A DNA stretch of 64,000 nucleotides from contig NC_088295.1 in NCBI RefSeq assembly GCF_032854445.1, positions 32,082,510 to 32,146,509 of the forward strand, written 5' to 3'. The translations under genes were made by a program, and so were the position numbers. Shown here piece after piece: positions 29,225-63,295 of the stretch (within the stretch, counting starts at the first letter, position 1; each line of letters begins with the position of its first letter). Origin of the DNA: Liolophura sinensis (Eukaryota). Below the pieces are notes generated by a model. That model was not told the origin of the DNA. It did no database searches and worked only from the letters and a program-made list of their open reading frames with translations.

Positions 29225-29305
29225 GCCACTTTGAAGGCTGTGGTGAACGGGGCAGAGATATCCACAGTGGTGTCATCCTCTCAACTCAGTAACACCAAAG
29301 GCACT
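29225..29305 (+). CDS. PARP4: PARP4-like exon 23
   Basis: ATLKAVVNGAEISTVVSSSQLSNTKGT, compare human ATLCALIQEKEFCTMVSTTELQKTTGT; donor act|gtgagt. Confidence 0.8.
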
Positions 29306-30135
29306 GTGAGTATCTGTATACTGTGAATAGTTAAATCAAAGGCACTGAGATCATCTGTATATTGTGAATAGTTAAATCAAAGGCACTGAGATCATCTGTA
29401 TATTGTGAATAGTTAAATCAAAGGCACTGAGATCATCTGTATATTGTGAATAGTTAAATTAAAGGCACTGAGAGCATCTTTACATTGTTAATAGTTAAAT
29501 TAAAGGCACTGTGAGCATCTGTACATTGTCAAAAGTTACACCAGAGGCACTGTGAGTATCTGTATACTGTGACTAGTAACACCAACGGCACTGAGTACAT
29601 CTGTATACTGTGAATAGTTAAATCAAAGGCACTGAGATCATCTGTATACTGTGAATAGCTAGACCAAAGGCACTGAGATCATCTTTTGTGAATAGTTAAA
29701 TTAAAGGCACTGAGAGCATCTTTACATTGTTAATAGTTAAATTAAAGGCACTGCGAGCATCTGTACATTTTCAAAAGTTACACCAGAGGCACTGTGAGTA
29801 TCTGTATACTGTGACTAGTAATCCTAAAGGCGCTGTTAGTATCTGTATACTGTGACTAGTAATCCTAAAGGCGCTGTTAGTATCTGTATACTGTGAGTAG
29901 CTACACCAATGGCACTGTTGGTATCTGTATACTGTGAAGAGCAACACCAAAGGCACTGTGAGTATCTTTATACTGTGAATAGTTGCACCAAAGGCACTGT
30001 TAGTATCTGTACACTGTGAAGAGCAACACCAAAGGCACTGTTGGTATCTATATACTGTGACTAGTAACACCAAAGGCACTGTTAGTATCTGTATACTGTG
30101 AAGAGCAACACCAAAGGCACTGTGAGTATCTGTAT
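29291..30135. repeat. Minisatellite, 41-bp unit x ~20, seeded from the exon-23 3' end plus 5' splice site
   Basis: The unit 'aaaggcactg(t)gag(t/a)atc(a)tctgtata(t/c)tgtgaatagttaaatc' starts inside exon 23. Several copies retain 'ggcactgtgagtatctg', which is the exon end plus GTGAGT donor. Confidence 0.9.
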
Positions 30136-30139
30136 TATG

Positions 30140-36250: not shown

Positions 36251-36346
36251 TGTAATGAGGATGTCTGATGTGTTCGGCATGACAATTCAGTGGTGGCAGT
36301 ATATGTACATACACCTTATGACTGCCCTCTTTGTCTTGTGTTGTAG

Positions 36347-37775
36347 GCTGATAGACTGGAGCTGAAGGAGTACATCATCAGGCTGAGTAAGGAGTACTCT
36401 ATTGTCACCCAGCTCACTGCCTTCTTTGTCTTGTGTTGTAGGCTTATAGACTGGAGCTGAAGGAGTACATCATCAGGCGGAGTAAGGAGTACTCTATTGT
36501 CACCCAGCTCACTACCTTCTTTCTCTTGTGTTGTAGGCTGATAGAGTGGAGCTGAAGGAGTACATCATCGGGCTGAGTAAGGAGTACTCTATTGTCACCC
36601 AGCTCACTACCTTCTTTGTCTTGTGTTGTAGGCTGATAGACTGGAGCTGAAGGAGTACATCATGAGGCTGAGTAAGGAGTACTCTATTGTCACCCAGCTC
36701 ACTACCTTCTTTATCTTGTGTTGTAGGCTTATAGACTGGAGCTGAAGTACATCATCAGGCGGAGTAAGGAGTACTCTGTTGTCACCCAGCTCACTACCTT
36801 CTTTGTCTTGTGTTGTAGGCTGATAGACTGGAGCTGAAAGAGTACATCATCAGGCTGAGTAAGGAGTACTCTGTTGTCACCCAGCTCACTACCTTCTTTG
36901 TCTTGTGTTGTAGGCTGATAGACTGGAGCTGAAAGAGTACATCATCAGGCTGAGTAAGGAGTACTCTATTGTCACCCAGCTCAATACCTTCTTTGTCTTG
37001 TGTTGTAGGCTGATAGACTGGAGCTGAAGGAGTACATCATCAGGCGGAGTAAGGAGTACTCTGTTGTCACCCAGTTCACTACCTTCTTTATCTTGTGTTG
37101 TAGGCTGATAGACTGGAGCTGAAGGAGTACATCATCAGGCTGAGTAAGGAGTACTCTATTGTCACCCAGCTCACTACCTTCTTTGTCTTGTGTTGTAGGC
37201 TGATAGAGTGGAGCTGAAGGAGTACATCATCAGGCTGAGTAAGGAGTACTCTATTGTCACCCAGCTCACTACCTTCTTTATCTTGTGTTGTAGGCTGATA
37301 GACTGGAGCTGAAGGAGTACATTATCGGGCTGAGTAAGGAGTACTCTATTGTCACCCAGCTCACTACCTTCTTTGTCTTGTGTTGTAGGCTGATAGACTG
37401 GAGCTGAAGGAGTACATCATCAGGCTGAGTAAGGAGTACTCTGTTGTCACCCAGCTCACTACCTTCTTTGTCTTGTGTTGTAGGCTGATAGACTGGAGCT
37501 GAAGGAGTACATTATCGGGCTGAGTAAGGAGTACTCTATTGTCACCCAGCTCACTACCTTCTTTGTCTTGTGTTGTAGGCTGATAGACTGGAGCTGAAGG
37601 AGTACATTATCGGGCTGAGTAAGGAGTACTCTATTGTCACCCAGCTCACTACCTTCTTTGTCTTGTGTTGTAGGCTTATAGACTGGAGCTGAAGGAGTAC
37701 ATCATCGGGCTGAGTAAGGAGTACTCTATTGTCACCCAGCTCACCAGCTTTGTGGCTGTGGAGGAGAGAGCAAAG
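36347..37775 (+). repeat. 95-bp tandem array x15, each unit = polypyrimidine tract + AG acceptor + first ~70 nt of exon 25. Only the last copy carries the authentic exon 3' end and donor.
   Basis: Unit 'gctgatagactggagctgaaggagtacatcatcaggctgagtaaggagtactctattgtcacccagctcactaccttctttgtcttgtgttgtag'. The final copy continues '...cagctcaccagctttgtggctgtggaggagagagcaaag|gtagga'. Confidence 0.9.
37674..37775 (+). CDS. PARP4: PARP4-like exon 25 (the one complete copy)
   Basis: AYRLELKEYIIGLSKEYSIVTQLTSFVAVEERAK, compare human QTLKSLIIKLSKENSLITQFTSFVAVEKRDENE; acceptor ttgtag|, donor aag|gtagga. Confidence 0.75.
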
Positions 37776-40811: not shown

Positions 40812-41384
40812 GTGAGTTGCTACCAAATTTGGTCAAAATACCTGTTTCATTGCACAGTTATATTCTTATAAACATTGCCTTCTGTCTCACAAATTTGAAG
40901 TTGAAATGCTAAGTTTTCAATTTTTGCATTGAATAAAAGTTTATGGTAGCTTTTTTGTGAAAATAAACGATCTTTTACATTTGAATGAATCAGGGCCACT
41001 GTAACAACATGATGGTCCAAAATTAGGTGGAGCCAAAACAAATAATATTTATTATTTTATACTCACTAAACTTAAAACTTTTCACGCATGCTTGATTACT
41101 GTATCCTGTGAATGGTAAATTGACTGTTCCAATGTCTTCTTGCAGGTGTGTACGTTCAGAAGCGGCAAGTGCCGTAGTGATGGGTAAGTGGATATCAGTA
41201 ATGTCAGTTGAAATTTTAGGAGGCACTGGCAGACTTGTACACTGTATTAGAGTGAAGATTGTTAGTTTACTTTGCCTCACTCCAGGCTGTTATCTTCCAA
41301 TCAATGATGTAACGAATATTAATCTAGATCTTGCTGTTTCAGTTGCAGCCTTATACACAAAGAGCTTTGTTCACCAACTACATG

Positions 41385-42560
41385 AATCAGTGTGTGGTGT
41401 CTTGGTTAGCACCTACATGTATCAGTGTGTGGTGTCTTGGTCAGCACCTACATGTATCAGTGTGTGGTGTCTTGGTCAGCACCTACATGTATCAGTGTGT
41501 GGTGTCTTGGTCAGCACCTACATGTATCAGTGTGTGGTGCCTTGGTCAGCACCTACATGTATCAGTGTGTGGTGTGTTGGTCAGCACCTACATGTATCAG
41601 TGTGTGGTGTGTTGGTCATCACCTACATGTATCAGTGTGTGGTGTGTTGGTCAGCACCTACATGTATCAGTGTGTGGTGTGTTGGTCATCACCTACATGT
41701 ATCAGTGTGTGGTGTGTTGGTCAGCACCTACATGTATCAGTGTGTGGTGTGTTGGTCATCACCTACATGTATCAGTGTGTGATGTCTAGGTCAGCACCTA
41801 CATTTACATGTATCAGTGTGTGGTGTCTTGGTCAGCACCTACATATATCAGTGTGTGGTATCTTGGTCATCACCTACATGTATCAGTGTGTGGTGTGTTG
41901 GTCAGCACCTACATATATCAGTGTGTGGTGTGTTGGTCAGCACCTACATGTATCAGTGTGTGGTGTCTTGGTCAGCACCTACATGTATCAGTGTGTGATG
42001 TCTAGGTCAGCACCTACATTTACATGTATCAGTGTGGGGTGTGTTGGTCAGCACCTACATGTATCAGTGTGTGATGTCTAGGTCAGCACCTACATTTACA
42101 TGTATCAGTGTGTGTTGTCTTGGTCAGCACATACATTTACATGTATCAGTGTGTGATGCCTTGGTCAACACCTACTTGTATCAGTTTTTATGTATTTATT
42201 TGATTAGTGTTTTATGCTGTACTCAAGAATATTTGACTTATACGATGGTGGCCTGCATTATGATGAGAGAAAAACCCCCAGAGCCCAGGGGAAACCTGCA
42301 GGTTGCTGACAGACCTTCCCACGTAGACTTGTATCAGTGTGTGATGTCTTGGTCAGCACCTACATGTATGGTTGGGTGGTGTCTTGGTCAGCACCTACAT
42401 GTATCAGTGTACGATGTCTAGGTCAGCACCTACATGTATCTGTACAATGTCTTGGTCAGGACCTACATGTACATGTATCAGTGTGTGATGTCTAGGTCAG
42501 CACCTACATATATCATTGTGTGATGTCTTGGTCAGCACCTACATATATCAGTGTGTGATG
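41385..42560. repeat. Minisatellite, 35-bp unit x ~30, interrupted by a SINE fragment
   Basis: 'cacctacatgtatcagtgtgtggtgtcttggtcag' reiterated; produces spurious 150-220 aa ORFs. Confidence 0.95.
42193..42320 (-). mobile_element. SINE fragment inserted in the 35-bp array
   Basis: 'tatttatttgattagtgttttatgctgtactcaagaatatttgacttatacgatggtggcctgcattatgatgagag...' is the reverse complement of the SINE tail and core. Confidence 0.6.
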
Positions 42561-42954: not shown

Positions 42955-45215
42955 ATATGGTGACACATCACATGTATGAACTTGTATTCATATGTGTTAT
43001 ATACGAGACCTGTGCGAAACCTTCATAGCTAATGTATTCTTCTGTCATGTCTGTACACCATATTCTCTTGTTCTACCTTCACATCCTGTGTGCCACATTG
43101 TATGAACTTGTATTTATATGTGTTATATACGAGACCTGTGCGAAACCTTCATAGATAATGTATTCTTCTGTCATGTCTGTACACCATATTCTCTTGTTTT
43201 ACCTTCACGTGCTGTGTGCCAGATTGTATGAACTTGTATTCATATATGTTATGTACGAGACCTGTGCAAAACCTTCATAGATAATGTATTCTTCTGTCAT
43301 GTCTGTACACCATATTCTCTTGTTCTACCTTCACATGCTGTGTGCCAGATTGTATGAGCTTGTATTCATATGTGTTATGTATGAGACCTGTGCGAAACCT
43401 TCAGAGATAATGTATTCTTCTGTCATGTATGTACACCATATTCTCTTGTCCTACCTTCACATGCTGTTTGCCAGGTTGTATGAGCTTGTATTCATATGTG
43501 TTATGTATGAGACCTGTGCGAAACCTTCAGAGATAATGCATTCTTCTGTCATGTATGTACACCATATTCTCTTGTCCTACCTTCACATGCTGTGTGCCAG
43601 GTTGTATGAGCTTGTATTCATATGTGTTATGTATGAGACCTGTGCGAAACCTTCAGAGATAATGTATTCTTCTGTCATGTATGTACACCATATTCTCTTG
43701 TTCTACCTTCACGTGCTGTGTGCCAGATTGTATGAACTTGTATTCATATGTGTTATGTATGAGACCTGTGCGAAACCTTCAGAGATAATGTATTCTTCTG
43801 TCATGTATGTACACCATATTCTCTTGTTCTACCTTCACATGCTGTGTGCCAGGTTGTATGCACTTATATTTATATAGTATGTCAGATTGCATGGACTTGT
43901 ATTTGAATGTGTTATGTAGATGGCATATTCTCTTGTTCATGCATCACATGCTGTATGCCAGATTGCATTTACATGTATTTGTATGCGTTATATAAGCTGT
44001 GAGAACTGTACATGTAGGAAACTCACAGATGATGTAATTGTTCATTTAATTGTTCTAGATTACAGATTGGGAGGAGCTGGTGATGGAGATGACAAAGGTA
44101 ACTCATCGTCATCAAGTGAGGATGAGGACTACGCTCCAATACCTGATATATATAGTGAAGGTGACATTCTACATTACATGTTCTGCCATTCCTCTATGCC
44201 TCTAGATGAGATAAATATAATTATGTGTATGCATGGGCTCTTTCACTCATGGACAGGCCTAAGTCCAGCAAATAAGTTTAAACAATGGACAGGAATGACA
44301 ATTCTGCAAACACAGCATTTATTTTATTTTCCATCAAAAGTTTGACAATTATGTTCAAGCCTGCTGGCCTTCATCCTGAGAAACATTTTGTCAGTGACGA
44401 GACAGACAGTAGCAGCTAGCTATGTCGTCATCCTCCTGATATATAGACAGTGTACGGGACATAGTGGCCAGCTATGTTGGTGACATCCTCCTGATGTATA
44501 GACAGTGTACGTGACATAGCGGCCAACTATGTTCTTAGCATCCTCCTGATATATAGACAGTGTAGGGGACATAGCGGCTAACTATGTTGTTGGCATCCTC
44601 CTGATGTATAGACAGTGTATGGGACATAGAGGCTAACTATGTTGTTGGCATCCTCCCGATGTATAGACAGTGTACGGGACATAGCGGCCAACTATGTTGT
44701 TGGCATCCTCCTGATGTGTAGACAGTGTACGGGACATAGTGGCTAACTATGTTGTTGGCATCCTCCTGATGTATAGACAGTGTACGGGACATAGAGGCTA
44801 ACTATGTTGTTGGCATCCTCCCGATGTATAGACAGTGTACGGGACATAGAGGTTAACTATGTTGTTGGCATCCTCCTGTGGTATAGACAGTGTACGGGAC
44901 ATAGAGGCCAACTATGTTGTTGGCATCCTCCTGATGTATAGACAGTGTACGGGACATAGAGGCTAACTATGTTGTTGGCATCCTCCCGATGTATAGACAG
45001 TGTACGGGACATACAGGCTAACTATGTTGTTGACATCCTCCTGATGTATAGACAGTGTACGGGACATAGCGGCCAACTATGTTGTTGGCATCCTCCTGAT
45101 GTATAGACAGTGTACGGGACATAGAGGCCAACTATGTTGTTGACATCCTCCTGATGTATAGACAGTGTACGGGACGTAGAGGCTAACTATGTTGTTGACA
45201 TCCTCCTGATGTATG
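42955..45215 (+). repeat. Segmental block copy 1: 123-bp array (42955-43870) + ~480-bp unique segment + 57-bp array (44395-45215)
   Basis: 123-bp unit 'gtattcatatgtgttatgtacgagacctgtgcgaaaccttcatagctaatgtattcttctgtcatgtctgtacaccatattctcttgttctaccttcacatgctgtgtgccagattgtatgaactt'. 57-bp unit 'ggacatagcggccaactatgttgttgacatcctcctgatgtatagacagtgtacg'. Confidence 0.9.
44059..44097 (+). CDS. PARP4: Candidate PARP4 C-terminal micro-exon (copy 1 of 3)
   Basis: ITDWEELVMEMTK between ttctag| and aag|gtaact, compare human PARP4 C-terminal AVPWTELLSLQTEDG. Identical or near-identical copies at 47895-47933 and 51255-51293. Confidence 0.25.
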
Positions 45216-47000: not shown

Positions 47001-50000
47001 TCTGTATTCATATGTGTTATGTACGAGACCTGTGTGAAACCTTCATAGCTAATGTATTCTTCTGTCATGTCTGTGCACCATATTCTCTTGTTCTACCTTC
47101 ACATCCTGTGTGCCAGATTGTATGAACTTGTATTCATATGTGTTATGTACGAGACCTGTGCAAAACCTTCCGAGCTAATGTATTCTTCTGTCATGTCTGT
47201 ACACCATATTCTCTTGTTTTACCTTCACATGCTGTGTGCCAGATTGTATGAACTTGTATTCATATGTGTTATGTACGAGACTTGTGCAAAACCTTCATAG
47301 CTAATGTATTCTTCTGTCATGTCTGTACACCATATTCTCTTGTTCTACCTTCACATCCTGTGTGCCAGATTGTATGAAGTTGTATTCATATGTGTTATGT
47401 ACGAGACCTGTGCGAAACCTTCATAGCTAATGTATTCTTCTGTCATGTCTGTACACCATATTCTCTTGTTCTACCTTCACATGCTGTGTGCCAGATTGTA
47501 TGAAGTTGTATTCATATGTGTTATGTACGAGACCTGTGTGAAACCTTCATAGCTAATGTATTCTTCTGTCATGTCTGTACACCATATTCTCTTGTTCTAC
47601 CTTCACATGCTGTGTGCCAGATTGTATCAGCTTGTATTTATATAAGTTGCGTATCCAGTATCCTCCAGTATACTACCTTCATATGCAGTGTGTCAGGTTG
47701 CATGGACTTGTATTTGTATGTGTTATGTAGGAACTGTAGAAAACTTTTAAAGAAGATGGCATATTCTCTTGTTCATGCATCACATGCTGTATGCCAGATT
47801 GCATTTACATGTATTTGTATGCGTTATATAAGCTGTGAGAACTGTACATGTAGGAAACTCACAGATGATGTAATTGTTCATTTAATTGTTCTAGTTCACG
47901 GATGGGGAGGAGCTGGTGATGGAGATGACAAAGGTAACTCATCGTCATCAAGTGAGGATGAGGACTACGCTCCAATACCTGATATATATAGTGAAGGTGA
48001 CATTCTACATTACATGTTCTGCCATTCCTCTATGCCTCTATGGGCTCTCTCACTCATTGACAGGTCTAAGTCTAGCAAATAAGAAGTCTAAACAATGGAC
48101 AGGAATGACAATTCTGCAAACACAGCATTTATTTTATTTTCCATCAAAATTTTGACAATCATGTTCAAGCCTGCTGGCCTTCATCCTGAGCAACATGTTG
48201 TCAGTGACGAGACAGACAGTAGCAGCTAGCTATGTCGTTGTCATCCTCCTGATATATAGACAGTGTACGGGACATAGAGGCCAGCTATGTTGGTGACATC
48301 CTCCTGATGTATAGACAGTGTACGGGACATAGCGGCCAACTATGTTGTTGGCATCCTCCTGATATATAGACAGTGTAGGGGACATAGCGGCCAACTATGT
48401 TGTTGACATCCTCCTGATGTATAGACAGTGTACGGGAGGTAGAGGCTAACTATGTTGCTGACATCCTCCTGATGTATAGACAGTGTACGGGACATAGCGG
48501 CTAACTGTGTTGTTGACATCCTCCTGATGTATAGACAGTGTACGGGACATAGTGGCTAACTATGTTGTTGACATCCTCCTGATGTATAGACAGTGTACGG
48601 GACATAGCGGCTAACTATGTTGTTGACATCCTCCTGATGTATAGACAGTGTACGGGACATAGCGGCTAACTATGTTGTTGACATCCTCCTGATGTATAGA
48701 CAGTGTACGAGACATAGCGGCTAACTATGTTGTTGACATCCTCCTGATATATAGACAGTGTACGGGACATAGCGGCCAACTATGTTGTTGACATCCTCCT
48801 GATGTATAGACAGTGTACGGGAAATAGAGGCTATGTTGTTGACACCCCCACGATGTATAGACAGTGTACAGGACATAGTGGCCGGCTATGTTGTTGGCTT
48901 CCTCCTGATGTATAGACAGTGAATGGGACATAGAGGCCAACTATGTTGTTGACATCCTCCTGATGTATAGACAGTGTACGGTACGTAGAGGCTAACTATG
49001 TTGTTGGCATCCTCCTGATATATAGACAGTGTACGGGACATAGCGGCTAACTATGTTGTTGACATCCTCCTGATGTATAGACAGTATACGGGACATAGAG
49101 GCTAACTATGTTGTTGGCATCCTCCCAATGTATAGACAGTGTATGGGACATAGAGGCTAACTATGTTGTTGGCAGCCTCCTGATGTATAGACAGTGTACG
49201 GGACATAGCGGCTAACTATGTTGTTGACATCCTCCTGATGTATAGACAGTGTATGGGACATAGAGGCTAACTATGTTGTTGGCATCCTCCTGATATATGG
49301 ACAGTGTACGGGACATAGAGGCTAACTATGTTGTTGACATCCTCCTGATGTATAGACAGTGTGCAGGACATAGAGGCTAACTATGTTGTTGGCATCGTCC
49401 TGATGTATAGACAGTGTACGGGACATAGTGGCCGGCTATGTTGTTGACATCCTCCTGATGTATAGACAGTGTACGGGACATAGCGGCTAACTATGTTGTT
49501 GACATCCTCCTGATGTATAGACAGTGTATGGGACATAGAGGCTAACTGTTGTTGGCATCCTCCTGAGGTATAGACAATGTATGGGACATAGAGGCCAACT
49601 ATGTTGTTGGCATCCTCATGATATATAGACAGTGTACGGGACATAGCGGCTAACTATGTTGTTGACATCCTCCTGATGTATAGACAGTGTACGGGACATA
49701 GCGGCTAACTATGTTGTTGACATCCTCCTGATGTATAGACAGTGTACGGGACATAGTGGCCGGCTATGTTGTTGACATCCTCCTGATGTATAGACAGTGT
49801 ACGGGACATAGCGGCTAACTATGTTGTTGACATCCTCCTGATATATAGACAGTGTACGGGACATAGAGGCTAACTATGTTGTTGACATCCTCCTGATGTA
49901 TAGACAGTGTACGGGACATAGTGGCCGGCTATGTTGTTGACATCCTCCTGATGTATAGACAGTGTACGGGACATAGCGGCTAACTATGTTGTTGACATCC

Positions 50001-50340
50001 TCCTGATATATAGACAGTGTACGGGACATAGCGGCTAACTATGTTGTTGACATCCTCCTGATATATAGACAGTGTACGGGACATAGAGGCTAACTATGTT
50101 GTTGACATCCTCCTGATGTATAGACAGTGTACCGGACATAGAGGCTAACTATGTTGTTGACATCCTCCTGATGTATAGACAGTGTACGGGACATAGCGGC
50201 TAACTATGTTGTTGGCATCCTCCTGATGTATAGACAGTGTACGGGACATAGCGGCTAACTATGTTGTTGACATCCTCTTGATATATAGACAGTGTACGGG
50301 ACATAGTGGCCGGCTATGTTGTTGGCATCCTCCTGATGTA
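46985..50340 (+). repeat. Segmental block copy 2: 123-bp array (46985-47625) + unique segment + 57-bp array (48175-50340, ~38 units)
   Basis: Same architecture and >90% identity to copy 1. Confidence 0.9.
47895..47933 (+). CDS. PARP4: Candidate micro-exon copy 2 (FTDGEELVMEMTK variant)
   Basis: ctag|ttcacggatggggaggagctggtgatggagatgacaaag|gtaact. Confidence 0.2.
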
Positions 50341-50409
50341 TGTGTGGGGATCTGTGATAATAAGGGATTAACAGCATTGTTCGTGCAATCTAATGTTCGC
50401 TGATGTATT

Positions 50410-52905
50410 TTTCTGTCATGTCTGTACACCATAATTCTCTTGTTCTACTTTCACATGCTGCGTGCCAGATTGTATGAACTTGTATTCATATGTGTTATGT
50501 ACGAGACCTGTGCGAAACCTTCATAGCTAATGTATTCTTCTGTCATGTCTGTACACCATATTCTCTTGTTTTACCTTCACATGCTGTGTGCCAGATTGTA
50601 TGAAGTTGTATTCATATGTGTTATGTACGAGACCTGTGTGAAACCTTCATAGCTAATGTATTCTTCTGTCATGTCTGTACACCATATTCTCTTGTTTTAC
50701 CTTCACATGCTGTGTGCCAGATTGTATGAAGTTGTATTCATATGTGTTATGTACGAGACCTGTGCGAAACCTTCATAGCTAATGTATTCTTCTGTCATGT
50801 CTGTACACCATATTCTCTTGTTTTACCTTCACATGCTGTGTGCCAAATTGTATGAACTTGTATTCATATGTGTTATGTACGAGACCTGTGCAAAACCTTC
50901 ATAGCTAATGTATTCTTCTGTCATGTCTGTACACCATATTCTCTTGTTCTACCTTCACATGCTGTGTGCCAGATTGTATGAGCTTGTATTTATATAAGTT
51001 GCGTATCCTCCAGTATACCCCATTATCTGGTTCTACCTTCATATGCAGTGTGTCAGGTTGCATGGACTTGTATTTGTATGTGTTATGTAGGAACTGTAGA
51101 AAACTTTTAAAGAAGATGGCATATTCTCTTGTTCATGCATCACATGCTGTATGCCAGATTGCTTTTACATGTATTTGTATGCGTTATATAAGCTGTGAGA
51201 ACTGTACATGTAGGAAACTCACAGATGATGTAATTGTTCATTTAATTGTTCTAGATTACGGATTGGGAGGAGCTGGTGATGGAGATGACAAAGGTAACTC
51301 ATCGTCATCAAGTGAGGATGAGGACTACGCTCCAATAACTGATATACATGGTGACTGTGACATTCTACATGACATGTTCTGCCTTTCCTCTATGCCTCTA
51401 GGTAAGATAAATATAATTATGTGTATGCATGGGCTCTTTCACTCATTGACAGGCCTAAGTCCAGCAAATAAGAAGTCTAAACAATGGACAGGAATGACAA
51501 TTCTGCAAACACAGCATTTATTTTATTTTCCATCAAAATTTTGACAATCATATCCAAGCCTGCTGGCCTTCATCCTGAGCAACATGTTGTCAGTGACGAG
51601 ACATACAGTAGCAGCTAGCTATGTCGTTGTCATCCTCCTGATATATAGACGGTGTACGGGACATAGTGGCCAACTATGTTGTTGACATCCTCCTGATGTA
51701 TAGACAGTGTACGGGACATAGCAGCCAACTATGTTGGTGACATCCTCCTGATGTATAGACAGTGTACGGGACATAGCGGCCAACTATGTTGTTGACATCC
51801 TCCTGATATATAGACAGTATACGGGACAGCGGCTAACTATGTTGTTGGCATCCTCCTGATGTATAGACAGTGTACGGGACATAGCGGCCAACTATGTTGT
51901 TGGCATCCTCCTGATGTATAGACAGTGTACGGGACATAGCAGCCAACTATGTTGTTGACATCCTCCTGATGTATAGACAGTGTACGGGACATAGCAGCCA
52001 ACTATGTTGGTGACATCCTCCTGATGTATAGACAGTGTACGGGACATAGCGGCTAACTATGTTGTTGACATCCTCCTGATGTATAGACAGTATACGGGAC
52101 AGCGGCTAACTATGTTGTTGGCGTCCTCCTGATGTATAGACAGTGTACAGGACATAGAGGCCAACTATGTTGTTGGCATCCTCCTTATGTATAGACAGTG
52201 TACGGGACATAGAGGCTAACTATGTTGGTGACATCCTCCTGATGTATAGACAGTGTACGGGACATAGTGGCCAACTATGTTGTTGGCATCCTCCCGATGT
52301 ATAGACAGTGTACGGGACATAGAGGCCAACTATGTTGTTGACATCCTCCTGATGTATAGACAGTGTACGGGACATAGCGGCCAACTATGTTGTTGGCATC
52401 CTCCTGATGTATAGACAGTGTACGGGACATAGCGGCCAACTATGTTGTTGACATCCTCCTGATGTATAGACAGTGTACGGGACATAGCGGCTAACTATGT
52501 TGTTGGCATCCTCCCGATGTATAGACACTGTATGGGACATATCGGCTAACTATGTTGTTGGCATCCTCCCGATGTATAGACAGTGTACGGGACATAGCGG
52601 CTAACTATGTTGTTGGCATCCTCCCGATGTATAGACAGTGTACGGGACATATCGGCTAACTATGTTGTTGGCATCCTCCCGATGTATAGACAGTGTACGG
52701 GACATAGCGGCTAACTATGTTGTTGACATCCTCCCGATGTATAGACACTGTACGGGACATATCGGCTAACTATGTTGTTGGCATCCTCCTGATGTATAGA
52801 CAGTGTACGGGACATAGCGGCTAACTATGTTGTTGACATCCCCCCAATGTATAGACAGTGTACGGGACATAGCGGCTAACTATGTTGTTGGCATCCTCCC
52901 GATGT
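50410..52905 (+). repeat. Segmental block copy 3: 123-bp array (50410-50990) + unique segment + 57-bp array (51575-52905)
   Basis: Same architecture; directly tandem to copy 2. Confidence 0.9.
51255..51293 (+). CDS. PARP4: Candidate micro-exon copy 3 (ITDWEELVMEMTK)
   Basis: ctag|attacggattgggaggagctggtgatggagatgacaaag|gtaact. Confidence 0.25.
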
Positions 52906-53641
52906 ATAGACAGTGTTCAGAGTGCATATACTGCTGCTTACTGCTGTAACTTCTTGTGTAGCGCTTACCACCTTGTTAGCTACAACTCCTGTTTACGGTT
53001 TATGCCTGTCCATCTGTTGTTAGCTTTATTTCCCATCTCAAAACTCTCAGTTGAAATCTTCAAGCAAGAACTTACTTCAGGCAATGTGTGAAACTCACCC
53101 AACAACTATACAGTTTGAAGATATAGCAATCCGCAGATGAGAGTTAAATGTTTACCTAATAAGCCTGTTCTTTATGATTCCATTTTTACATGATGCTCAT
53201 TGTATAAATAGTCCAAGAAGGTGACTGTGTCTAGTGGTGAGCCCCTCGTTCAGTCCAGAAACGCAATTGCTCCAAATATATTTAAAGAGAGTATATCGGT
53301 GAATTTTGGTGGAAAATAGATCGGTAAAAATCTGTCTGTTTGCCATTGTTTTGGAATAATCAAAATGATTACCTTTCACAAAATATTAGCCGTGTTTGCG
53401 AATGTCCTTATCACTGTGTATAGTTTAGGTATGAGTCGAATACTTACTGAAAGACAATGATGTGAGCTATTCTTGGTAAATAGAGTGATCTGATGGTGAA
53501 TATGGATTTTTCCTCCAAAAGTCTCCGGTATAGATTCTCTAAGAAAAAGCTTCCACATTTGGTGCACATGTTTTCCTTGAAGAACAGTTCTTCTGAAACA
53601 CATTATTTTAATTTTAACACTTAATATTGAATGTCTGACAG

Positions 53642-53722: not shown

Positions 53723-54416
53723 GTGAGTGAATTATCCTTTAAATCATTAGGGAAGAACTGACCTGCAAGAATGTATGTTGTGAAGAGTATCTAAGAATCT
53801 ATTCTGTCACATCTGCCAAATTTGTACTACATGTACTTGGAGAATATAGAAACGTTGGCAGCTTACACACAATCACAATTTTTAATTTCATTATTTGATA
53901 TATGAATAAATGAATCAAGGCTCATTAAGTACTTTTCCTCAGAGTTACTCACATAAATGCTACTGGCATTATTTTGTTATTATGTGTTAACCCATTAGGT
54001 TTGTTTGGGTGTATATTGTGTTCACCTTCACATGGTTTGTATCTGTGAGTCATTAATGAGTGACCGGCCGCATTATAGTACAGTGTTATCCATACGTCTG
54101 TTAAAAATTGGTCCTGAGAGGAGTATCTTGAATTTCTGAAATCTTGTTTTACTGTTTTGGCCTCTTTACCAGGGGCTGTTATATAGGGAAGGATAAGATT
54201 GCGCTTGGCCAGTGTTAATCCCACCATAATGTCGTCATCATCATATGAAGTGCACCATTATTCAGTAGGCAGATAAACACCAATCAAATAAATAAGTAGA
54301 TATTATTAAAAAGTAAAGTTAAGCCATGAAATGAGATCAAATGTTACTTCTCAGCTGTAGCATTCCACAGCTTTACAGTATCAGTGTTTGAATTCATGCA
54401 CAGTTTGAAAAGTCTA

Positions 54417-55000
54417 AAGCCCTGTCCAGACTATCCCACATCACTCAGCTTTTGTTGAATTAACAAGATTCAACTTGAAATTGAGGCAACAGGTTGTGCC
54501 ATGTTGAGTAGTCTAGACAGGTACTTCAACTTCGTTCAGTAACACTCCTCACCATCCAAAATTGTTGAATCAAAAATGTGCATGTGTATTTTTGTCAACA
54601 AGTTGAGTCAATCAGCAAGCGTGTAAAAATAATGTGACCGCCTTAAGGCATGTGACCTGGGCAAAACAGCAGCACCACAGGCGAAAGAGAGAAACTGGTC
54701 TCATGATGAGACAGTTTCGTTGATACAGGAGTATGATATATACCCTTGCCTGTACAACACTGTCTCTATAGATTACAAAGACAGGGACAAAAGAAAATCA
54801 TTGTCTCATGCACTGGAGAGAAAGATGGAAATTTCCCTGCAATTTATTGAAAGTTTGGTGAAAAAACACAGCTCAGCACACAAGTGTTGGACAATGTTGA
54901 ACTATCTGATTTGTAGTGTGGACGGGATACTCAACTTACCTCAACAGATTCAACTTACTGTTGAGTCAACAAAAGTTGAAAGATAGCCTGGACAGGGCTT
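54417..55000 (+). mobile_element. 584-bp TIR element (MITE-like, non-autonomous DNA transposon) carrying a MADF-domain ORF
   Basis: Left end 'aagccctgtccagactatc' and right end 'gatagcctggacagggctt' form 19-bp TIRs (1 mismatch). Subterminal inverted motifs 'cttttgttgaattaacaagattcaacttg' and 'caagttgaatc...caacaaaagttg'. Confidence 0.55.
54633..54986 (+). CDS. MADF (Myb/SANT-like) domain ORF inside the TIR element; no in-frame ATG upstream
   Basis: ...KERNWSHDETVSLIQEYDIYPCLYNTVSIDYKDRDKRKSLSHALERKMEISLQFIESLVKKHSSAHKCW... fits the MADF consensus (W..E.T..LI.....P.LYD.....Y+D+..+..AW..I). Harbinger/PIF Myb-like proteins carry this domain. Confidence 0.45.
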   Translation, partial: CDRLKACDLGKTAAPQAKERNWSHDETVSLIQEYDIYPCLYNTVSIDYKDRDKRKSLSHALERKMEISLQFIESLVKKHSSAHKCWTMLNYLICSVDGILNLPQQIQLTVESTKVER

Positions 55001-55856
55001 CAAGATAAAGTAAAACACTTTGATGATTTGCTTTTAGCTCACTTGTACAAAATAGAAATGTAGCTTAGTTATGTCACTCCCTGAGCGTCAGATAGCAGGG
55101 ATGCACTGTTGAACAAAATGTTAAAAGTGGTATGTTAAAAAGTACTGCATATGTTGAGCTCAGGATTTGCACATATGTAGAGCACAATAGCATCAGAGGA
55201 ACATTCCATCGTTGATTGAGTGTGTACATATTAAATGCCGTAAATTACTGAATTCTTGTCTTGATGTATTGTGTAAACAAACTGGTATGGATGGTATCTC
55301 CAAAAGTATTTATGTACTGAGCTCAGATTTTACACACATATAGAGCACAATAACTTGAAGGGGATGTTCCATCATTGATTTGCTTATGTGTGTGCATACG
55401 TAGGGTTTTTGACACTCATTTTGCTAATCATCATATATTTGATCTCTATGATATAAATGAACTAGTCTTGAAAAATTGCCTCCAAAACCATTTAATTGAT
55501 ACAAATTAGACAATCTTTAAAACTTTTTGTAGAGCATAACCTGACCCAATCAGAAAAACGAAGTAGATTGGTAGAGGTAGATTTTTTAGAAGTTTCACAA
55601 ATGAAAATGATAGGGATTTTAAAAACATTGAGAGACAAACAAACAAACAAAAATTCCATCAAAAGTGTAATAAAACTATCTAAAAAACAATAAGAGTAAG
55701 GCCTTTTTTGCAGAGTTGATTAGGTCATATTTAAATGATAGCCTTACTCCCCAAATCACTCCATGATATATTGGAAAAGTTTTTCTTTGTTAACCCCTCA
55801 TGTAATGTAGACAGCACTGTGCGCCTGATACACAGGACTTTGCGCGTACATTACAG

Positions 55857-57879: not shown

Positions 57880-60800
57880 TAAGGTCATGCTGCAGGATAT
57901 TCACCATTATTGCCAAATAGGGTTATAGGTGTGAAAAAAGCGTCTACCTTGTGGGCGGCGAAGCGTAACCTACATACATGTACATTTGTACAGTAGGGTG
58001 GCAGGATATTCACCATCATTGCCAAATAGGGTTATAGGTGTGAAAAAAGCGTCTACCGTGTGGGCGGCGAAGCGTAACCTACATACATGTACATTTGTAC
58101 AGTAGGGTGGCAGGATATTCACCATCATTGCCAAATAGGGTTACAGGTGTGAAAAAAGCATCTACCTTGTGGGCGGTGAAGCGTAACCTACTTACATGTA
58201 CATTTGTACAGTAGGATGGCAGGATATTCACCATTATTGCCAAATAGGGTTATAGGTGTGAAAAAAGTGTCTACCTTGTGGGCGGCGAAGCGTAACCTAC
58301 ATACATGTACATTTGTACAGTAGGATGGCAGGATATTCACCATCATTGCCAAATAGGGTTATAGGTGTGAAAAAAGCGTCTACCTTGTGGGCGGCGAAGC
58401 GTAACCTACATACATGTACATTTGTACAGTAGGATGGCAGGATATTCACCATCATTGCCAAATAGGGTTATAGGTGTGAAAAAAGCGTCTACCTTGTGGG
58501 CGGCGAAGCGTAACCTACTTACATGTACATTTGTACAGTAGGATGGCAGGATATTCACCATCATTGCCAAATAGGGTTATAGGTGTGAAAAAAGCGTCTA
58601 CCTTGTGGGCGGCGAAGCGTAACCTACTTACATGTACATTTGTACAGTAGGATGGCAGGATATTCACCATCATTGCCAAATAGGGTTATAGGTGTGAAAA
58701 AAGCGTCTACCTTGTGGGCGGCGAAGCGTAACCTACTTACATGTACATTTGTACAGTAGGATGGCAGAATATTCACCATCATTGCCAAATAGGGTTATAG
58801 GTGTGAAAAAAGTGTCTACCTTGTGGGCGGCGAAGCGTAACCTACATACATGTACATTTGTACAGTAGGATGGCAGAATATTCACCATCATTGCCAAATA
58901 GGGTTATAGGTGTGAAAAAAGCGTCTACCTTGTGGGCGGCGAAGCGTAACCTACTTACATGTACATTTGTACAGTAGGATGGCAGGATATTCACCATCAT
59001 TGCCAAATAGGGTTATAGGTGTGAAAAAAGTGTCTACCTTGTGGGCGGCGAAACGTAACCTACATACATGTACATTTGTACAGTAGGATGGCAGGATATT
59101 CACCATCATTGCCAAATAGGGTTATAGGTGTGAAAAAAGCGTCTACCTTGTGGGCGGCGAAGCGTAACCTACTTACATGTACATTTGTACAGTAGGATGG
59201 CAGGATATTCACCATTATTGCCAAATAGGGTTATAGGTGTGAAAAAAGTGTCTACCTTGTGGGCGGCGAAACGTAACCTACATACATGTACATTTGTACA
59301 GTAGGATGGCAGGATATTCACCATCATTGCCAAATAGGGTTATAGGTGTGAAAAAAGCGTCTACCTTGTGGGCGGCGAAACGTAACCTACTTACATGTAC
59401 ATTTGTACAGTAGGATGGCAGGATATTCACCATCATTGCCAAATAGGGTTATAGGTGTGAAAAAAGCATCTACCTTGTGGGCGGCGAAACGTAATCTACT
59501 TACATGTACATTTGTACAGTAGGATGGCAGGATATTCACCATCATTGCCAAATAGGGTTATAGGTGTGAAAAAAGCGTCTACCTTGTGGGCGGCGAAACG
59601 TAACCTACTTACATGTACATTTGTACAGTAGGATGGCAGGATATTCACCATCATTGCCAAATAGGGTTATAGGTGTGAAAAAAGCGTCTACCTTGTGGGC
59701 GGCGAAACGTAACCTACTTACATGTACATTTGTACAGTAGGATGGCAGGATATTCACCATCATTGCCAAATAGGGTTATAGGTGTGAAAAAAGCGTCTAC
59801 CTTGTGGGCGGCGAAACGTAACCTACTTACATGTACATTTGTACAGTAGGATGGCAGGATATTCACCATCATTGCCAAATAGGGTTATAGGTGTGAAAAA
59901 AGCGTCTACCTTGTGGGCGGCGAAACGTAACCTACTTACATGTACATTTGTACAGTAGGATGGCAGGATATTCACCATCATTGCCAAATAGGGTTATAGG
60001 TGTGAAAAAAGTGTCTACCTTGTGGGCGGCGAAACGTAACCTACGTACATGTACATTTGTACAGTAGGATGGCAGGATATTCACCATCATTGCCAAATAG
60101 GGTTATAGGTGTGAAAAAAGTGTCTACCTTGTGGGCGGCGAAACGTAACCTACTTACATGTACATTTGTACAGTAGGATGGCAGGATATTCACCATCATT
60201 GCCAAATAGGGTTATAGGTGTGAAAAAAGCGTCTACCTTGTGGGCGGCGAAACGTAACCTACATACATGTACATTTGTACAGTAGGTTGGCAGGATATTC
60301 ACCATCATTGCCAAATAGGGTTACAGGTGTGAAAAAAGCATCTACCTTGTGGGCGGTGAAGCGTAACCTACTTACATGTACATTTGTACAGTAGGATGGC
60401 AGGATATTCACCATTATTGCCAAATAGGGTTATAGGTGTGAAAAAAGCGTCTACCTTGTGGGCGGCGAAGCGTAACCTACTTACATGTACATTTGTACAG
60501 TAGGATGGCAGGATATTGCCAAGTAGGGTTATTGGTGTGAAAAAAAAGTGTCTACCTTGTGGGCGGCGAAACGTAACCTACATACATGTACATTTGTACA
60601 GTAGGATGGCAGAATATTCACCATCATTGCCAAATAGGGTTATAGGTGTGAAAAAAGCGTCTACCTTGTGGGCGGCGAAGCGTAACTTACATACATGTAC
60701 ATTTGTACAGTAGGATGGCAGGATATTCACCATCATTGCCAAATAGGGTTATAGGTGTGAAAAAAGTGTCTACCTTGTGGGCGGCGAAGCGTAACTTACA

Positions 60801-61310
60801 TACATGTACATTTGTACAGTAGGATGGCAGGATATTCACCATCATTGCCAAATAGGGTTATAGGTGTGAAAAAAGCGTCTACCTTGTGGGCGGCGAAGCG
60901 TAACCTACATACATGTACATTTGTACAGTAGGATGGCAGGATATTGCAAAGTTGGGTTATAGGTGTGAAAAAAAGCGTCTACCTTGTGGGCTGTGAAGCG
61001 TCTACCTTGTGGGCTGTGAAGCGTCTACCTTGTGGGCTGTGAAGCATAACCTACATACATGTACATTTGTACAGTAGGATGGCAGGATATTCACCATCAT
61101 TGCCAAATAGGGTTATAGGTGTGAAAAAAGCGTCTACCTTGTGGGCGGCGAAGCGTAACCTACATACATGTACATTTGTACAGTAGGTTGGCAGGATATT
61201 GCAAAGTTGGGTTATAGGTGTGAAAAAAAGCGTCTACCTTGTGGGCTGTGAAGCGTCTACCTTGTGGGCTGTGAAGCATAACCTACATACATCTACATTT
61301 GTACAGTAGG
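57880..61310. repeat. Minisatellite, 109-bp unit x ~31 (3.4 kb), immediately upstream of the proline-rich exon
   Basis: 'ggcaggatattcaccatcattgccaaatagggttataggtgtgaaaaaagcgtctaccttgtgggcggcgaagcgtaacctacttacatgtacatttgtacagtaggat' reiterated. Degenerate at the 3' end (61000-61300). Confidence 0.95.
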
Positions 61311-61691
61311 ATGGCAGGATACTTTTTCAGCATTTTCAGATTATTCAGATGTATACATGGAGAACAGCATACAGTGTGTCAGTATTTGAGTGGTTTGAGG
61401 TCTTGTTCTAGCTTTGTTCAGCTTCCATACAACCTGGTTGATGCTGTACATATTAATATTGCCAATGTAACACACCTAAAAATTCAGTATCCAAGTCAGT
61501 TAATTTCATCAGGGAGGTTTTGAAAACTGAGTGTAGGTGGTTTTTGGTGATGTGACTTTTATTTTGTCTCCCTAATGGCCAAACCTATAATATGTTCAAA
61601 CTTCCATCCACCTCAGTGTGGAATCATTTGTGATTCAAGTTTTAATCATGCACAAGTCATATGTAGGACACTTTGATTTTGTGTTTTGCAG

Positions 61692-62816
61692 ATCATGAGC
61701 AGAAGAAATATGCAATATCAAAGAAAGAAAGCAGTTCATCCAGATCAAATTTTAAGGAAAGACTACAGAAAAGGGCAATAAGCACCAGGTTTGCAGATTC
61801 CAGAGAAGAGAAGCATCTGATGACAGGACAATTGGTGGACTCTTCAGCAGATAAACCATCTGCTCTAATTCCTGACAAAAACAGAGAAATACCACTCCAT
61901 GAAAAGATTGTTGAAAAACCAAAAAAGAAAATAAAAGATCTATCCGGATCAGTATTCATTCCTCTTTGCGGAAGGATGTCTTCTCCAATAAAACAAGTAG
62001 GAAAATCACCACCACCCAGCAGATTTGGAAGATCACCACCTCCACCACCACCTAGCCGATTTGAACAAGGACCACCTCCACCACCACCTAGCAGATTTGA
62101 ACCAGTTCCACCTCCACTACCTCCCAGGAGATTTAGAACAGTACCACGTCCACCACCACCTGGCAAACTTGGATCAGTACTACCGCCCCCACCGCCCAGT
62201 AAATATGGATCAGTACCACCTCCCCCACTGCCCAGTAAATCTGGATCAGTACCACCTCCCCCACCACCGAGTAGATCAGTACCACCTCCCCCACTGCCCA
62301 GTAAATCTGGATCAGTACCACCTCCCCCACTGCCCATTAAATGTGGATCAGTACCACCTCCCCCACCACCCAGTAGATCAGTGCCCCCTACCCCACCGCC
62401 CAGTAAATCTGGATCAGTAACACCTCTACTATCTACCAGTAAGATTGATTCAGCAATACCATCACCTCCACCTCCTAGCAGATTTGGATCAGCACCACCT
62501 CCTCCACCTCCTAGCAAATTTGAATCAGCACCACCTCCTCCACCTCCTAGCAAATTTGAATCAGCACCACCTCCTCCACCTCCTAGCAAAGTTAGACCAG
62601 CCCGGCTTTCCACTTTTCACAGGAGATCTCGTGAACGCAAGTCAAATGTTGTATTTCCATGTGGAAAACAATATATGCTTCAGGGGCATGCAGCTGTCTC
62701 CTCAGAACACTATTCAGAATGTGCTGAATCATTAGTTCACAGGAAGGAGTTTGGAGATGTAGTTCAGACAGTATTCCCTGGGGCAGAGGCTGTGCTTGAT
62801 AAAATGGCAGTGATAG
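61692..62816 (+). CDS. Large proline-rich exon (FH1-like poly-Pro repeats), 375 aa; gene affiliation unresolved
   Basis: ttttgcag| acceptor at 61691, donor atag|gtaaat at 62817. About 17 repeats of [GS]xPPPPPPS[KR][FSY]G. Flanked by a basic/acidic N-segment (KKESSSSRSNFKERLQKR) and a C-segment ...CGKQYMLQGHAAVSSEHYSECAESLVHRKEFGDVVQTVFPGAEAVLDKMAVI. Confidence 0.55.
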
Positions 62817-63295
62817 GTAAATACTTGGTCACACATGTTTTTCGTGCTGTTTCATCGATTTTGAAGGAACTTATGGCCATTCTCTCCTGTTATAGTTTTG
62901 AACAGTTTTCAGAACAATTTTTTTTTTGTGCAAAGTATTTTAACAGTTATTTTTAGCTCAGTTCTATGAAGTAAGGAAAGGTATTGTAAAGGGTGGGGCA
63001 GGTGGGAAGGGTCAGTGTTGGTTAAACTTTTTTAGCTCCATAGTATATGGAATGGTATGTAAATGTACCTGCTCAGATGGAAGGTTAAGCATTTTTTTAA
63101 TACAGCAATAGAAACTGTGTTACCCCCTTAACAAAGATACATGTCATGTGTATACAGGAATCTCCTCTGTCCTTCTGTCTTTAGACATGATTATGTCCAT
63201 ACATCTCCTCCCTAACTACTCAGCTAATTTTGAAGAAACTTACCATACATCTTGCCTACCATCTAAACTTGTGCATGCTTATAAAGCTTAATTAT

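What the first reader, a model, noticed from the sequence alone, without database searches (positions are those of the whole stretch)
54417..55000. Compact TIR element whose entire interior encodes a MADF domain
19-bp terminal inverted repeats (aagccctgtccag[a/g]ctatc) plus symmetric subterminal motifs bound 584 bp. The interior is one ORF with a clear MADF signature (NWSHDETVSLIQEYDIYPCLYN...IDYKDRDKRK). MADF/Myb-like DNA-binding proteins are the second ORF of PIF/Harbinger transposons. This looks like a deletion derivative that kept only that gene: a mobilisable DNA-binding domain cassette. There is no upstream in-frame ATG, so expression would need read-through or splicing from a host exon. 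It lies between candidate host exons at 53.6 and 55.9 kb.
Basis: partly seen in the sequence, partly recalled or inferred. Interest (0 to 1): 0.6.

Follow-up and report, generated by a model that had tools for sequence, protein, structure and literature searches.

The report
Decayed Harbinger transposon remnant with half a MADF gene

Summary
An 18/19 inverted repeat bounds 54417-55000, TCAAC/GTTGA motifs are 13-fold enriched near both ends, and an ORF matches Pfam MADF. Two details are wrong. The ORF covers 60% of the element, not all of it. The MADF match covers only profile positions 1-49 of 84.

The nearest MADF relatives lie in compact TIR elements on marine-metagenome contigs. Those elements have alignable termini, an extra inner copy of the terminal motif at the same spacing, and the MADF start about 250-300 bp from one end. 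Some also carry a transposase-like N-terminus reading inward from the other end. They are flanked by perfect TAA or TTA duplications. A more distant relative pairs its MADF gene with a convergent DDE_Tnp_4 transposase.

In that register the window element is 54418-54999, flanked by TAA and TCA. The relatives' ATG aligns with ACA here.

Verdict: a decayed non-autonomous PIF/Harbinger deletion derivative. The MADF piece survives only because that gene starts next to the transposon end. MADF-only Harbinger derivatives are already described. No second copy of this family was found, and the host organism was not identified. Low interest: a new member of a known kind.

The parts
54415..54417 (.). 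Left target-site duplication, TAA.
   Evidence: The TIR register was set by relatives: L002 reads TAA|AACCTAGTCTACAC...TAGGCT|TAA and L027 reads TTA|AGGCCCGTCTACAC...GGGCCT|TTA. In the same 14-nt register the window reads TAA|AGCCCTGTCCAGAC.
54418..54435 (+). Left terminal inverted repeat, AGCCCTGTCCAGACTATC.
   Evidence: It is 13/18 identical, by eye, to the terminus of L004/L027 (AGGCCCGTCTACACTAGC), and the two align.
54454..54611 (.). Left subterminal region with 7 TCAAC/GTTGA repeats. These are presumed binding sites for the family's MADF protein.
   Evidence: Motif map and enrichment. The best hit in the window of an nhmmer profile built only from relatives' non-coding 5' ends is 54481-54657 (E 0.03), collinear with the profile.
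54508..54523 (-). Inner inverted copy of the terminal motif (GTAGTCTAGACAGG), 87 bp inside the left end.
   Evidence: The same feature lies 81-83 bp inside the end in L001 and L005. The equivalent copy in L002 was seen only by eye.
54649..54656 (+). CATGTGAC box about 10-35 bp upstream of the former start codon. It is conserved as CAYGTG in relatives and may be a promoter element of the MADF gene.
   Evidence: Alignment (window, L005, L030 and L002) and the L004 sequence. The function is inferred only.
54666..54668 (+). Former MADF start codon, now ACA (Thr).
   Evidence: In the alignment the window's GGGCAAAACAGCAGCA lines up with GGACAAAATGGCAGCC in L030 and GGACAAAATGGCGACT in L005.
54693..54866 (+). 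Remnant of the transposon's MADF gene (NWSHDETVSLIQEYDIYPCLYNTVSIDYKDRDKRK...ESLVKK). It covers the N-terminal ~58% of the domain.
   Evidence: Pfam PF10545, aa 30-76 = 54720-54860, profile 1-49/84. phmmer hits. tblastn of relatives covers 54636-54881 at most. Protein alignment.
54633..54986 (+). Whole open frame (117 codons plus stop). Its last ~40 codons are fortuitous read-through into the right end.
54867..54895 (.). Approximate zone of the internal-deletion junction. MADF homology ends here and right-end homology begins.
   Evidence: Inferred from the limits of MADF similarity and of right-end similarity.
54896..54980 (.). Right subterminal region with 7 TCAAC/GTTGA repeats.
   Evidence: The best hit in the window of the nhmmer 3'-end profile built from relatives is 54908-54977 (E 0.053).
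54913..54927 (-). Inner copy of the terminal motif (GTAGTGTGGACGGGA), 70 bp inside the right end and in the same orientation as the right TIR.
   Evidence: (D4). The same feature lies 77-78 bp inside the end in L004 and L002.
54982..54999 (-). Right terminal inverted repeat (reverse complement AGCCCTGTCCAGGCTATC).
55000..55002 (.). Right target-site duplication, TCA. It is degenerate, matching the left TAA at 2 of 3 bases.

Best explanation

In this lineage the autonomous element appears to carry two convergent genes. A MADF (Myb-like) gene starts about 250-300 bp inside one end. A DDE transposase gene starts about 170-200 bp inside the other end. Each end has a terminal motif, a second inner copy of that motif 70-90 bp in, and a field of family-specific pentamer repeats.

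A deletion removed everything from codon ~58 of the MADF gene to about 133 bp from the far end. What remains is both ends plus the 5' part of the MADF gene. That part survives only because it adjoins cis sequences the element needs.

The copy then decayed. The start codon changed from ATG to ACA, one TIR base mismatches, and one base of the duplication changed.

If it moved as such a derivative, it did so in trans. By analogy with studied Harbinger elements, the MADF protein of an autonomous partner would bind the subterminal repeats and recruit the transposase to the ends.

Shown: the anatomy, the MADF homology and its truncation, the homology and shared architecture of the ends with elements that carry TAA/TTA duplications, and the loss of the ATG.

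Inferred: the full-length ancestor in this genome, the trans-mobilisation, and the binding role of the TCAAC repeats.
For: - The TIR is 18/19 and unique in the window.
- TCAAC/GTTGA occurs 15 times against 1.1 expected, confined to the two subterminal zones.
- MADF: Pfam E 2.6e-5, above the gathering score, but profile positions 1-49/84 only. phmmer gave 16 hits, all aligned to the MADF-matching part of the ORF.
- The nearest relatives sit in compact TIR elements. L002 reads TAA|...|TAA. L027 reads TTA|...|TTA. L004 ends ...GGGCCT|TTA. L001 and L030 have TAA at the left junction, with different flanks.
- The terminal 14 nt are in the same register, and the inner motif copies lie at the same spacing: 81-87 bp at one end and 70-78 bp at the other.
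- Profiles built only from relatives' non-coding ends pick out 54481-54657 and 54908-54977 as the top hits in the whole window (E 0.03 and 0.053). Both are collinear and on the correct strand.
- L004, L027, L001, L030 and L002 carry an arginine-rich ORF on the opposite strand (…RRRRRRTEKIKRLWTKPWILQREKYGAYHSLIQELR…) that reads inward from the other end.
- L006 pairs a related MADF gene with a convergent DDE_Tnp_4/Plant_tran gene (DDE_Tnp_4 E 2e-30).
- The deletion junctions differ between families, so such derivatives arise repeatedly.
- The ATG of relatives aligns with ACA in the window.
- Literature: PIF/Harbinger has a 3-bp TWA duplication, two genes (DDE plus MADF) and short TIRs. [quoted passage not shown] MADF-only and MITE-like derivatives are described.
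Against: - The duplication here is imperfect (TAA vs TCA).
- There is only one copy in the window. No further copy was found in JGI metagenomes, where the 20 TIR matches were all single 18-23-nt chance hits. So neither copy number nor a full-length partner with these TIRs is shown.
- The non-coding homology to relatives is weak (E about 0.03-0.05 for each end).
- The transposase-like N-terminal ORFs in the compact relatives have no Pfam match. The one database relative found is another 80-aa fragment. Their identity as Harbinger transposase N-termini therefore rests on my recollection of the motif.
- L006, the only relative with a proven DDE_Tnp_4 gene, is a distant MADF relative (39% identity, E 6.6e-4) and has no recognisable TIRs on its short contig.
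Confidence: 0.85

Rival explanations
1. The element is a mobile cassette that delivers a MADF DNA-binding domain. It would be expressed by splicing or read-through from the host gene in whose intron it lies, through exonisation or incipient domestication.
For: - The frame is open for 117 codons on the same strand as the putative flanking exons.
- MADF and Harbinger genes have been domesticated repeatedly in animals.
Against: - Only MADF profile positions 1-49/84 are present. From general knowledge of Myb/SANT-like domains, the missing C-terminal part holds the third helix, which makes the DNA contacts.
- The start codon is lost.
- No AG upstream of the ORF has a polypyrimidine tract, and no GT in the element matches GTRAGT.
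- The ORF tail is subterminal repeat sequence.
- No homologous protein with this ORF as an exon was found.
Confidence: 0.04
2. A MITE of unrelated origin captured a fragment of a host MADF gene (transduplication, as in Pack-MULEs). On this reading the MADF piece says nothing about the element's superfamily.
For: - No transposase remnant lies within the element or the window.
- MADF genes are abundant host genes in many animals.
Against: - In five related families or copies (L001/L030, L002/L003, L004/L027 and L005), the MADF start lies at the same distance from an alignable terminus and follows a conserved CAYGTG box.
- The ends themselves are weakly homologous to the window's ends.
- That pattern fits an ancestral gene of the element, not an independent capture.
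Confidence: 0.05
3. A still-mobilisable MITE. The element is an intact non-autonomous Harbinger that is currently active in trans. Its coding remnant is irrelevant, but its ends are fully functional.
For: - The TIRs are 17/18 identical.
- Both inner motif copies and 14 of the 15 pentamer repeats lie in the positions conserved among relatives.
Against: - The duplication is degenerate and the ATG is lost, which points to some age.
- No second copy was seen in 64 kb or in the metagenome scan.
- No autonomous partner is known.

This is a variant of the best explanation that differs only on present activity.
Confidence: 0.06

Closest known systems
Non-autonomous PIF/Harbinger derivatives, in particular the 'MADF-only' Harbinger-1M_cIno family of Caenorhabditis inopinata (bioRxiv 10.64898/2026.05.26.728016)
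   Same: Both are TIR-bounded elements with a 3-bp TWA-type duplication. Both keep MADF-gene sequence and have lost the DDE transposase. Both are presumed to be mobilised in trans.
   Different: - The C. inopinata elements keep an intact MADF domain and ORF and are shown to be active and multi-copy.
- Here only the first ~58 codons survive, with no start codon, and only one copy is known.
- Gene order in Caenorhabditis is described as head-to-head. In the relatives of this element the two genes are convergent.
Tourist-like MITEs / mPing-type deletion derivatives of PIF/Ping/Pong (plants)
   Same: These are short internal-deletion derivatives. They keep the ends and subterminal sequences of a two-gene PIF/Harbinger parent and insert at TAA/TTA (for the general properties; the plant examples are from my own knowledge).
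   Different: - Typical MITEs are classed as lacking any recognisable coding remnant, whereas this one keeps a recognisable half-domain.
- There is no sequence relationship to the plant families.
Compact elements on marine-metagenome contigs found here (L027/L004; L001/L030; L002/L003; L005)
   Same: - Alignable terminal 14 nt.
- An inner copy of the terminal motif at the same spacing at each end.
- Fields of pentamer repeats.
- A CAYGTG box and the MADF start about 240-320 bp from the end.
- MADF proteins 44-59% identical over the core.
   Different: - Their pentamer is CAAAC, not TCAAC.
- Most also keep a transposase-like N-terminal ORF next to the other end, which the window element has lost.
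- Their duplications are perfect.
- They come from other, unidentified organisms.
Harbinger3_DR (zebrafish) and its domesticated descendants HARBI1/NAIF1
   Same: The system has two components. A Myb-like protein binds the transposon ends and recruits the DDE transposase (summarised).
   Different: - No detectable sequence relationship was tested or found here.
- The window element encodes neither functional component.

Membership tests
PIF/Harbinger superfamily (as a non-autonomous member) | 3-bp target-site duplication at a TWA target | tested here: inconclusive
   The window reads TAA|...|TCA, 2 of 3 bases. Homologous elements in the same register read TAA/TAA (L002) and TTA/TTA (L027), and L004 has TTA on the one side available.
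PIF/Harbinger superfamily (as a non-autonomous member) | Short terminal inverted repeats | tested here: met
   18-nt TIR, 17/18 identical, unique in the window.
PIF/Harbinger superfamily (as a non-autonomous member) | Descent from an element that encodes a DDE_Tnp_4 (PF13359) transposase | tested here: inconclusive
   - There is no transposase sequence in the element or the window.
- A distant MADF relative (P0012, L006) lies next to a convergent DDE_Tnp_4 gene, E 2e-30.
- The closer relatives carry only an N-terminal transposase-like ORF with no Pfam match.
- No full-length element with these TIRs was available.
PIF/Harbinger superfamily (as a non-autonomous member) | A second gene that encodes a Myb/SANT/MADF protein | tested here: met
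   There is a remnant only: PF10545 at 24.9 bits (gathering score 22), profile positions 1-49/84. Complete genes are present in the relatives L006 and L028.
PIF/Harbinger superfamily (as a non-autonomous member) | Multiple copies at different sites (evidence of mobility) | not testable with these tools
   The source genome is not available. There is one copy in the window and none in JGI metagenomes. Related families do occur at different sites: L001 vs L030 and L004 vs L027 have different flanks.
MADF DNA-binding domain (PF10545), as a functional domain | A complete domain of about 84 positions, including the C-terminal part | tested here: not met
   The match stops at profile position 49 of 84. 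Beyond ...ESLVKK the ORF has no similarity to the K-x-LR-x-x-Y segment of P0012, P0016 and P0003.
MADF DNA-binding domain (PF10545), as a functional domain | A translatable gene (start codon and reading frame) | tested here: not met
   There is no in-frame ATG. The position of the relatives' ATG is ACA.
MITE in the strict sense (no coding remnant) | Short, TIR-bounded, no recognisable protein domain | tested here: not met
   At 582 bp with TIRs it is MITE-sized. However, a MADF remnant is recognisable. Under the scheme quoted it would be classed as 'MADF-only' rather than MITE.

The most novel reading that the evidence does not exclude
The element and its metagenomic relatives may represent a PIF/Harbinger lineage of marine animals that has not been formally described. 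It would have a conserved asymmetric end architecture: the terminal motif plus an inner copy in the same absolute orientation at both ends. The two genes would be convergent. The subterminal pentamers (TCAAC here, CAAAC in relatives) would co-vary with the MADF protein, giving a natural series for studying how MADF specificity and transposon ends co-evolve. A far less likely reading is that the truncated MADF fragment is exonised into the host gene.
Probability: 0.25. Interest if true: 0.3.

Novelty: new member of a known kind. Interest (0 to 1): 0.15.

Why it matters
It matters little by itself. It is one more dead non-autonomous DNA transposon in an intron.

It is useful for annotation. The MADF hit at 54.7 kb should be masked as a transposon remnant and not called as a host exon or gene.

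The comparison also gives a working description of the ends of this Harbinger lineage: the terminal 14 nt, the inner motif copy, the pentamer fields and the TAA/TTA target. That description could seed a repeat-library entry. It could also help find the autonomous partner once the source genome is searched.

Tried and rejected
- A word-indexed protein search with the ORF found nothing.
- A protein search with concatenated putative host exons plus the non-repetitive parts of the 61.7-kb ORF found nothing. The organism and host gene remain unidentified.
- An exact TIR scan of JGI metagenome contigs gave 20 loci. Each had a single 18-23-nt match and no further similarity, so these are chance hits and not copies.
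- A protein search with the transposase-like N-terminus of L004 found only one other 80-aa fragment (P0021, L027). It found no full-length transposase. That fragment and the one from L001 have no Pfam match.
- An exact look-up of the 88-aa TTG-started ORF in the gene-position index found nothing on record.
- Rfam found nothing anywhere in the window.
- Searching solved structures with the ORF gave only chance-level hits.
- I considered that L028 (the full 3-exon MADF gene, with TTGAGC repeats upstream) shares the terminus. The nhmmer profile and blastn give no support, so this is only a lead.
- I considered that the MADF match ends at an exon-intron border (TTG|GTGAAA at 54858), because L002, L005, L028 and L029 have an intron near there. 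However, intron-less relatives align a few codons further. A deletion breakpoint just after ...SLVKK is therefore equally possible, and I could not decide between the two.
- I considered duplications of TA (Tc1/mariner) and 8 bp (hAT). The flanks do not fit either better than TAA/TCA, and the relatives' flanks fit 3 bp.

Full report
**1. What is in the sequence**

The two arms 54417-54435 (AAGCCCTGTCCAGACTATC) and 54982-55000 are 18/19 complementary. At up to three mismatches the motif occurs only at these two places in the 64-kb window, against 0.01 expected from shuffles.

The pentamer TCAAC/GTTGA occurs 15 times within the 584 bp, against about 1.1 expected from the rest of the window. All but one copy lie in two subterminal zones, 54454-54611 and 54896-54980.

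A shortened copy of the terminal motif also lies inside each end. GTAGTCTAGACAGG at 54508-54523 is inverted relative to the left terminus and 87 bp in. GTAGTGTGGACGGGA at 54913-54927 is direct relative to the right terminus and 70 bp in.

**2. The ORF**

Four stops precede it.

Pfam MADF_DNA_bdg matches at E 2.6e-5 and 24.9 bits, above the gathering score of 22. The match covers only aa 30-76 (54720-54860) against profile positions 1-49 of 84.

An exhaustive phmmer search of 1.8 billion representatives gave 16 hits, the best at E 1.8e-6. All align to this same part of the ORF, and every one that carries a source name or a Pfam record is MADF. tblastn of these proteins back onto the window covers 54636-54881 at most.

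After ...ESLVKK the ORF no longer resembles the K-x-LR-x-x-Y segment of the full-length relatives P0012, P0016 and P0003. The last ~40 codons lie over the right subterminal repeats.

So the MADF signature is real, but it is only the N-terminal ~58% of a domain followed by accidental read-through.

**3. Relatives and what they show**

The closest MADF relatives are short ORFs on marine or environmental metagenome contigs. Fetching those contigs shows that they lie in compact TIR elements built like the window element.

| Locus | What it shows |
|---|---|
| L002 (and L003) | Complete element: TAA\|AACCTAGTCTACAC ... GTGTAGACTAGGCT\|TAA |
| L027 | Complete element: TTA\|AGGCCCGTCTACAC ... GTGTAGACGGGCCT\|TTA |
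| L004 | Second copy of the L027 family in a different flank; ends GGGCCT\|TTA |
| L001, L030 | Two copies of a third family with different left flanks, both TAA\|TGCCTAGTCTACAC |

All share the following features:
- The first 14 nt of the terminus are in the same register as the window's AGCCCTGTCCAGAC.
- An inverted inner copy of the terminal motif lies 81-87 bp inside the MADF-side end. A direct inner copy lies 70-78 bp inside the other end.
- The subterminal zones are packed with a pentamer, CAAAC in these families (26-28 copies).
- A CAYGTG box precedes the MADF ATG, which lies about 240-320 bp from the end.

On the opposite strand, L004, L027, L001, L030 and L002 carry an arginine-rich ORF that reads inward from the other end (for example MARNKKK...RRRRRRTEKIKRLWTKPWILQREKYGAYHSLIQELR). 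To my knowledge this resembles the N-terminus of PIF/Harbinger transposases. It has no Pfam match, and the only database relative is another fragment.

A more distant MADF relative (P0012, on Logan contig L006) is followed by a convergent gene with DDE_Tnp_4 (E 2e-30) and Plant_tran domains.

L028 shows a complete three-exon MADF gene.

**4. Is the window element really homologous to these?**

Beyond the MADF similarity, I built nhmmer profiles from the relatives' non-coding 5' ends and 3' ends only, and searched the whole window on both strands.

The top hit of the 5' profile is 54481-54657 (E 0.03, profile positions 53-222). The top hit of the 3' profile is 54908-54977 (E 0.053, profile positions 73-152). 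Both are on the right strand and collinear with the profile. Each is weak alone. Together with the matching terminal register and inner-motif spacing, they make shared ancestry of the ends the simplest reading.

The alignment also places the relatives' start codon (GACAAAATGGC) opposite GGCAAAACAGC in the window. The ATG has therefore become ACA at 54666-54668.

**5. Boundaries and duplication**

In the register fixed by the relatives, the element is 54418-54999 (582 bp, TIR 17/18). It is flanked by TAA (54415-54417) and TCA (55000-55002).

A 3-bp TWA duplication, short TIRs and a DDE gene plus a MADF gene are the stated hallmarks of PIF/Harbinger. The window copy meets the duplication criterion only imperfectly. 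Its relatives meet it perfectly.

**6. Mechanism**

The best reading is an internal deletion of a two-gene Harbinger element.

The MADF gene starts next to one end and the transposase gene next to the other. Any deletion that spares the cis-required ~150-300 bp at each end therefore tends to leave the first exon or first codons of one or both genes.

The related families show this happened several times with different junctions:
- In L001 and L030 the MADF gene is cut after ...EYKDRD.
- In L004 and L027 it is cut after ...RKAAIRKLL.
- In L002 it is cut after the first intron donor.

In the window element the junction falls between about 54867 and 54895. Nothing of the transposase side remains except 133 bp of the end.

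By analogy with studied Harbinger systems, the Myb-like/MADF protein binds terminal or subterminal sequences and brings in the transposase. The TCAAC repeats would then be binding sites for the family's own MADF protein. The change of pentamer between families (TCAAC vs CAAAC) would reflect co-evolution of protein and ends. This step is inferred, not shown.

**7.

A 'mobilisable DNA-binding cassette' is not supported. The domain is incomplete, the start codon is lost, and the ORF tail is repeat sequence.

The element also offers no convincing splice sites. Every AG upstream of the ORF follows a purine-rich stretch, and no GT matches GTRAGT.

The flanking candidate exons do have open frames with AG/GT borders. 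A protein search with them returned nothing, so even the intron context is only plausible.

**8. Limits**

- The organism is unidentified.
- The window holds no other copy and no transposase.
- Copy number, a full-length partner with these TIRs and an empty site therefore remain untested.

**9. Novelty**

Non-autonomous Harbinger derivatives, including 'MADF-only' ones, are already described. This is a new member of a known kind and is of low interest.

The modestly interesting by-product is the conserved asymmetric end architecture and convergent gene order shared with several uncharacterised elements from marine metagenomes.

Noticed in passing
L002 9751-9928 (also present in L003): A second, unrelated MITE-like element is nested inside the 5' region of the related Harbinger derivative. 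It has a 76-nt inverted repeat at 97% complementarity with a 26-nt loop, and it sits between the CAYGTG box and the MADF ATG.
   Followed up: no
window 55112-55380: Immediately downstream of the element, a unit of about 163 bp is duplicated in tandem. The pairs are 55155-55217 with 55318-55380 (78% identity) and 55112-55144 with 55276-55308 (73% identity). It is unrelated to the transposon.
   Followed up: no
window 12563-14127, 22099-22783, 29294-34828, 36321-37744, 41367-42185, 44429-45214, 48215-52916, 57892-60945: The window is unusually rich in long minisatellite arrays, which cover a large fraction of the 64 kb. Examples are a 41-bp unit x112, a 55-bp unit x85, a 109-bp unit x28 and a 63-bp unit x25. 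Most long ORFs in the window are artefacts of these arrays.
   Followed up: no
window 43920-44345, 47516-48082, 50966-51544: Three paralogous ORF-bearing segments (…MAYSLVHASHAVCQIAF…SSSSSEDEDYAPIPDIYSEGDILHYMF…) recur at about 3.5-kb spacing. Each lies between a 126-bp-unit array and a 55-bp-unit array, which suggests a higher-order tandem duplication.
   Followed up: no
window 61673-62956 (+): A 427-codon open frame has a long proline-rich repeat (PPPPPPSK/RFGS…, FH1- or WASP-like) flanked by non-repetitive sequence. It may be a large real exon. A protein search that included its non-repetitive parts found no homologue.
   Followed up: partly
L028 100-300: Upstream of a complete three-exon MADF gene, a JGI metagenome contig has a cluster of GCTCAAC/GTTGAGC repeats that resemble the window's TTGAGT/TCAAC repeats. 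It also has a possible terminus, TTA|AGCGGGTATTACAC. Profile and BLAST comparisons gave no significant support.
   Followed up: partly
L006 1-24 and 1914-1937: The Logan contig that carries the convergent MADF and DDE_Tnp_4 genes begins with (AC)n and ends with (GT)n. This could be an assembly artefact or microsatellite-flanked ends. No TIR was recognised.
   Followed up: no
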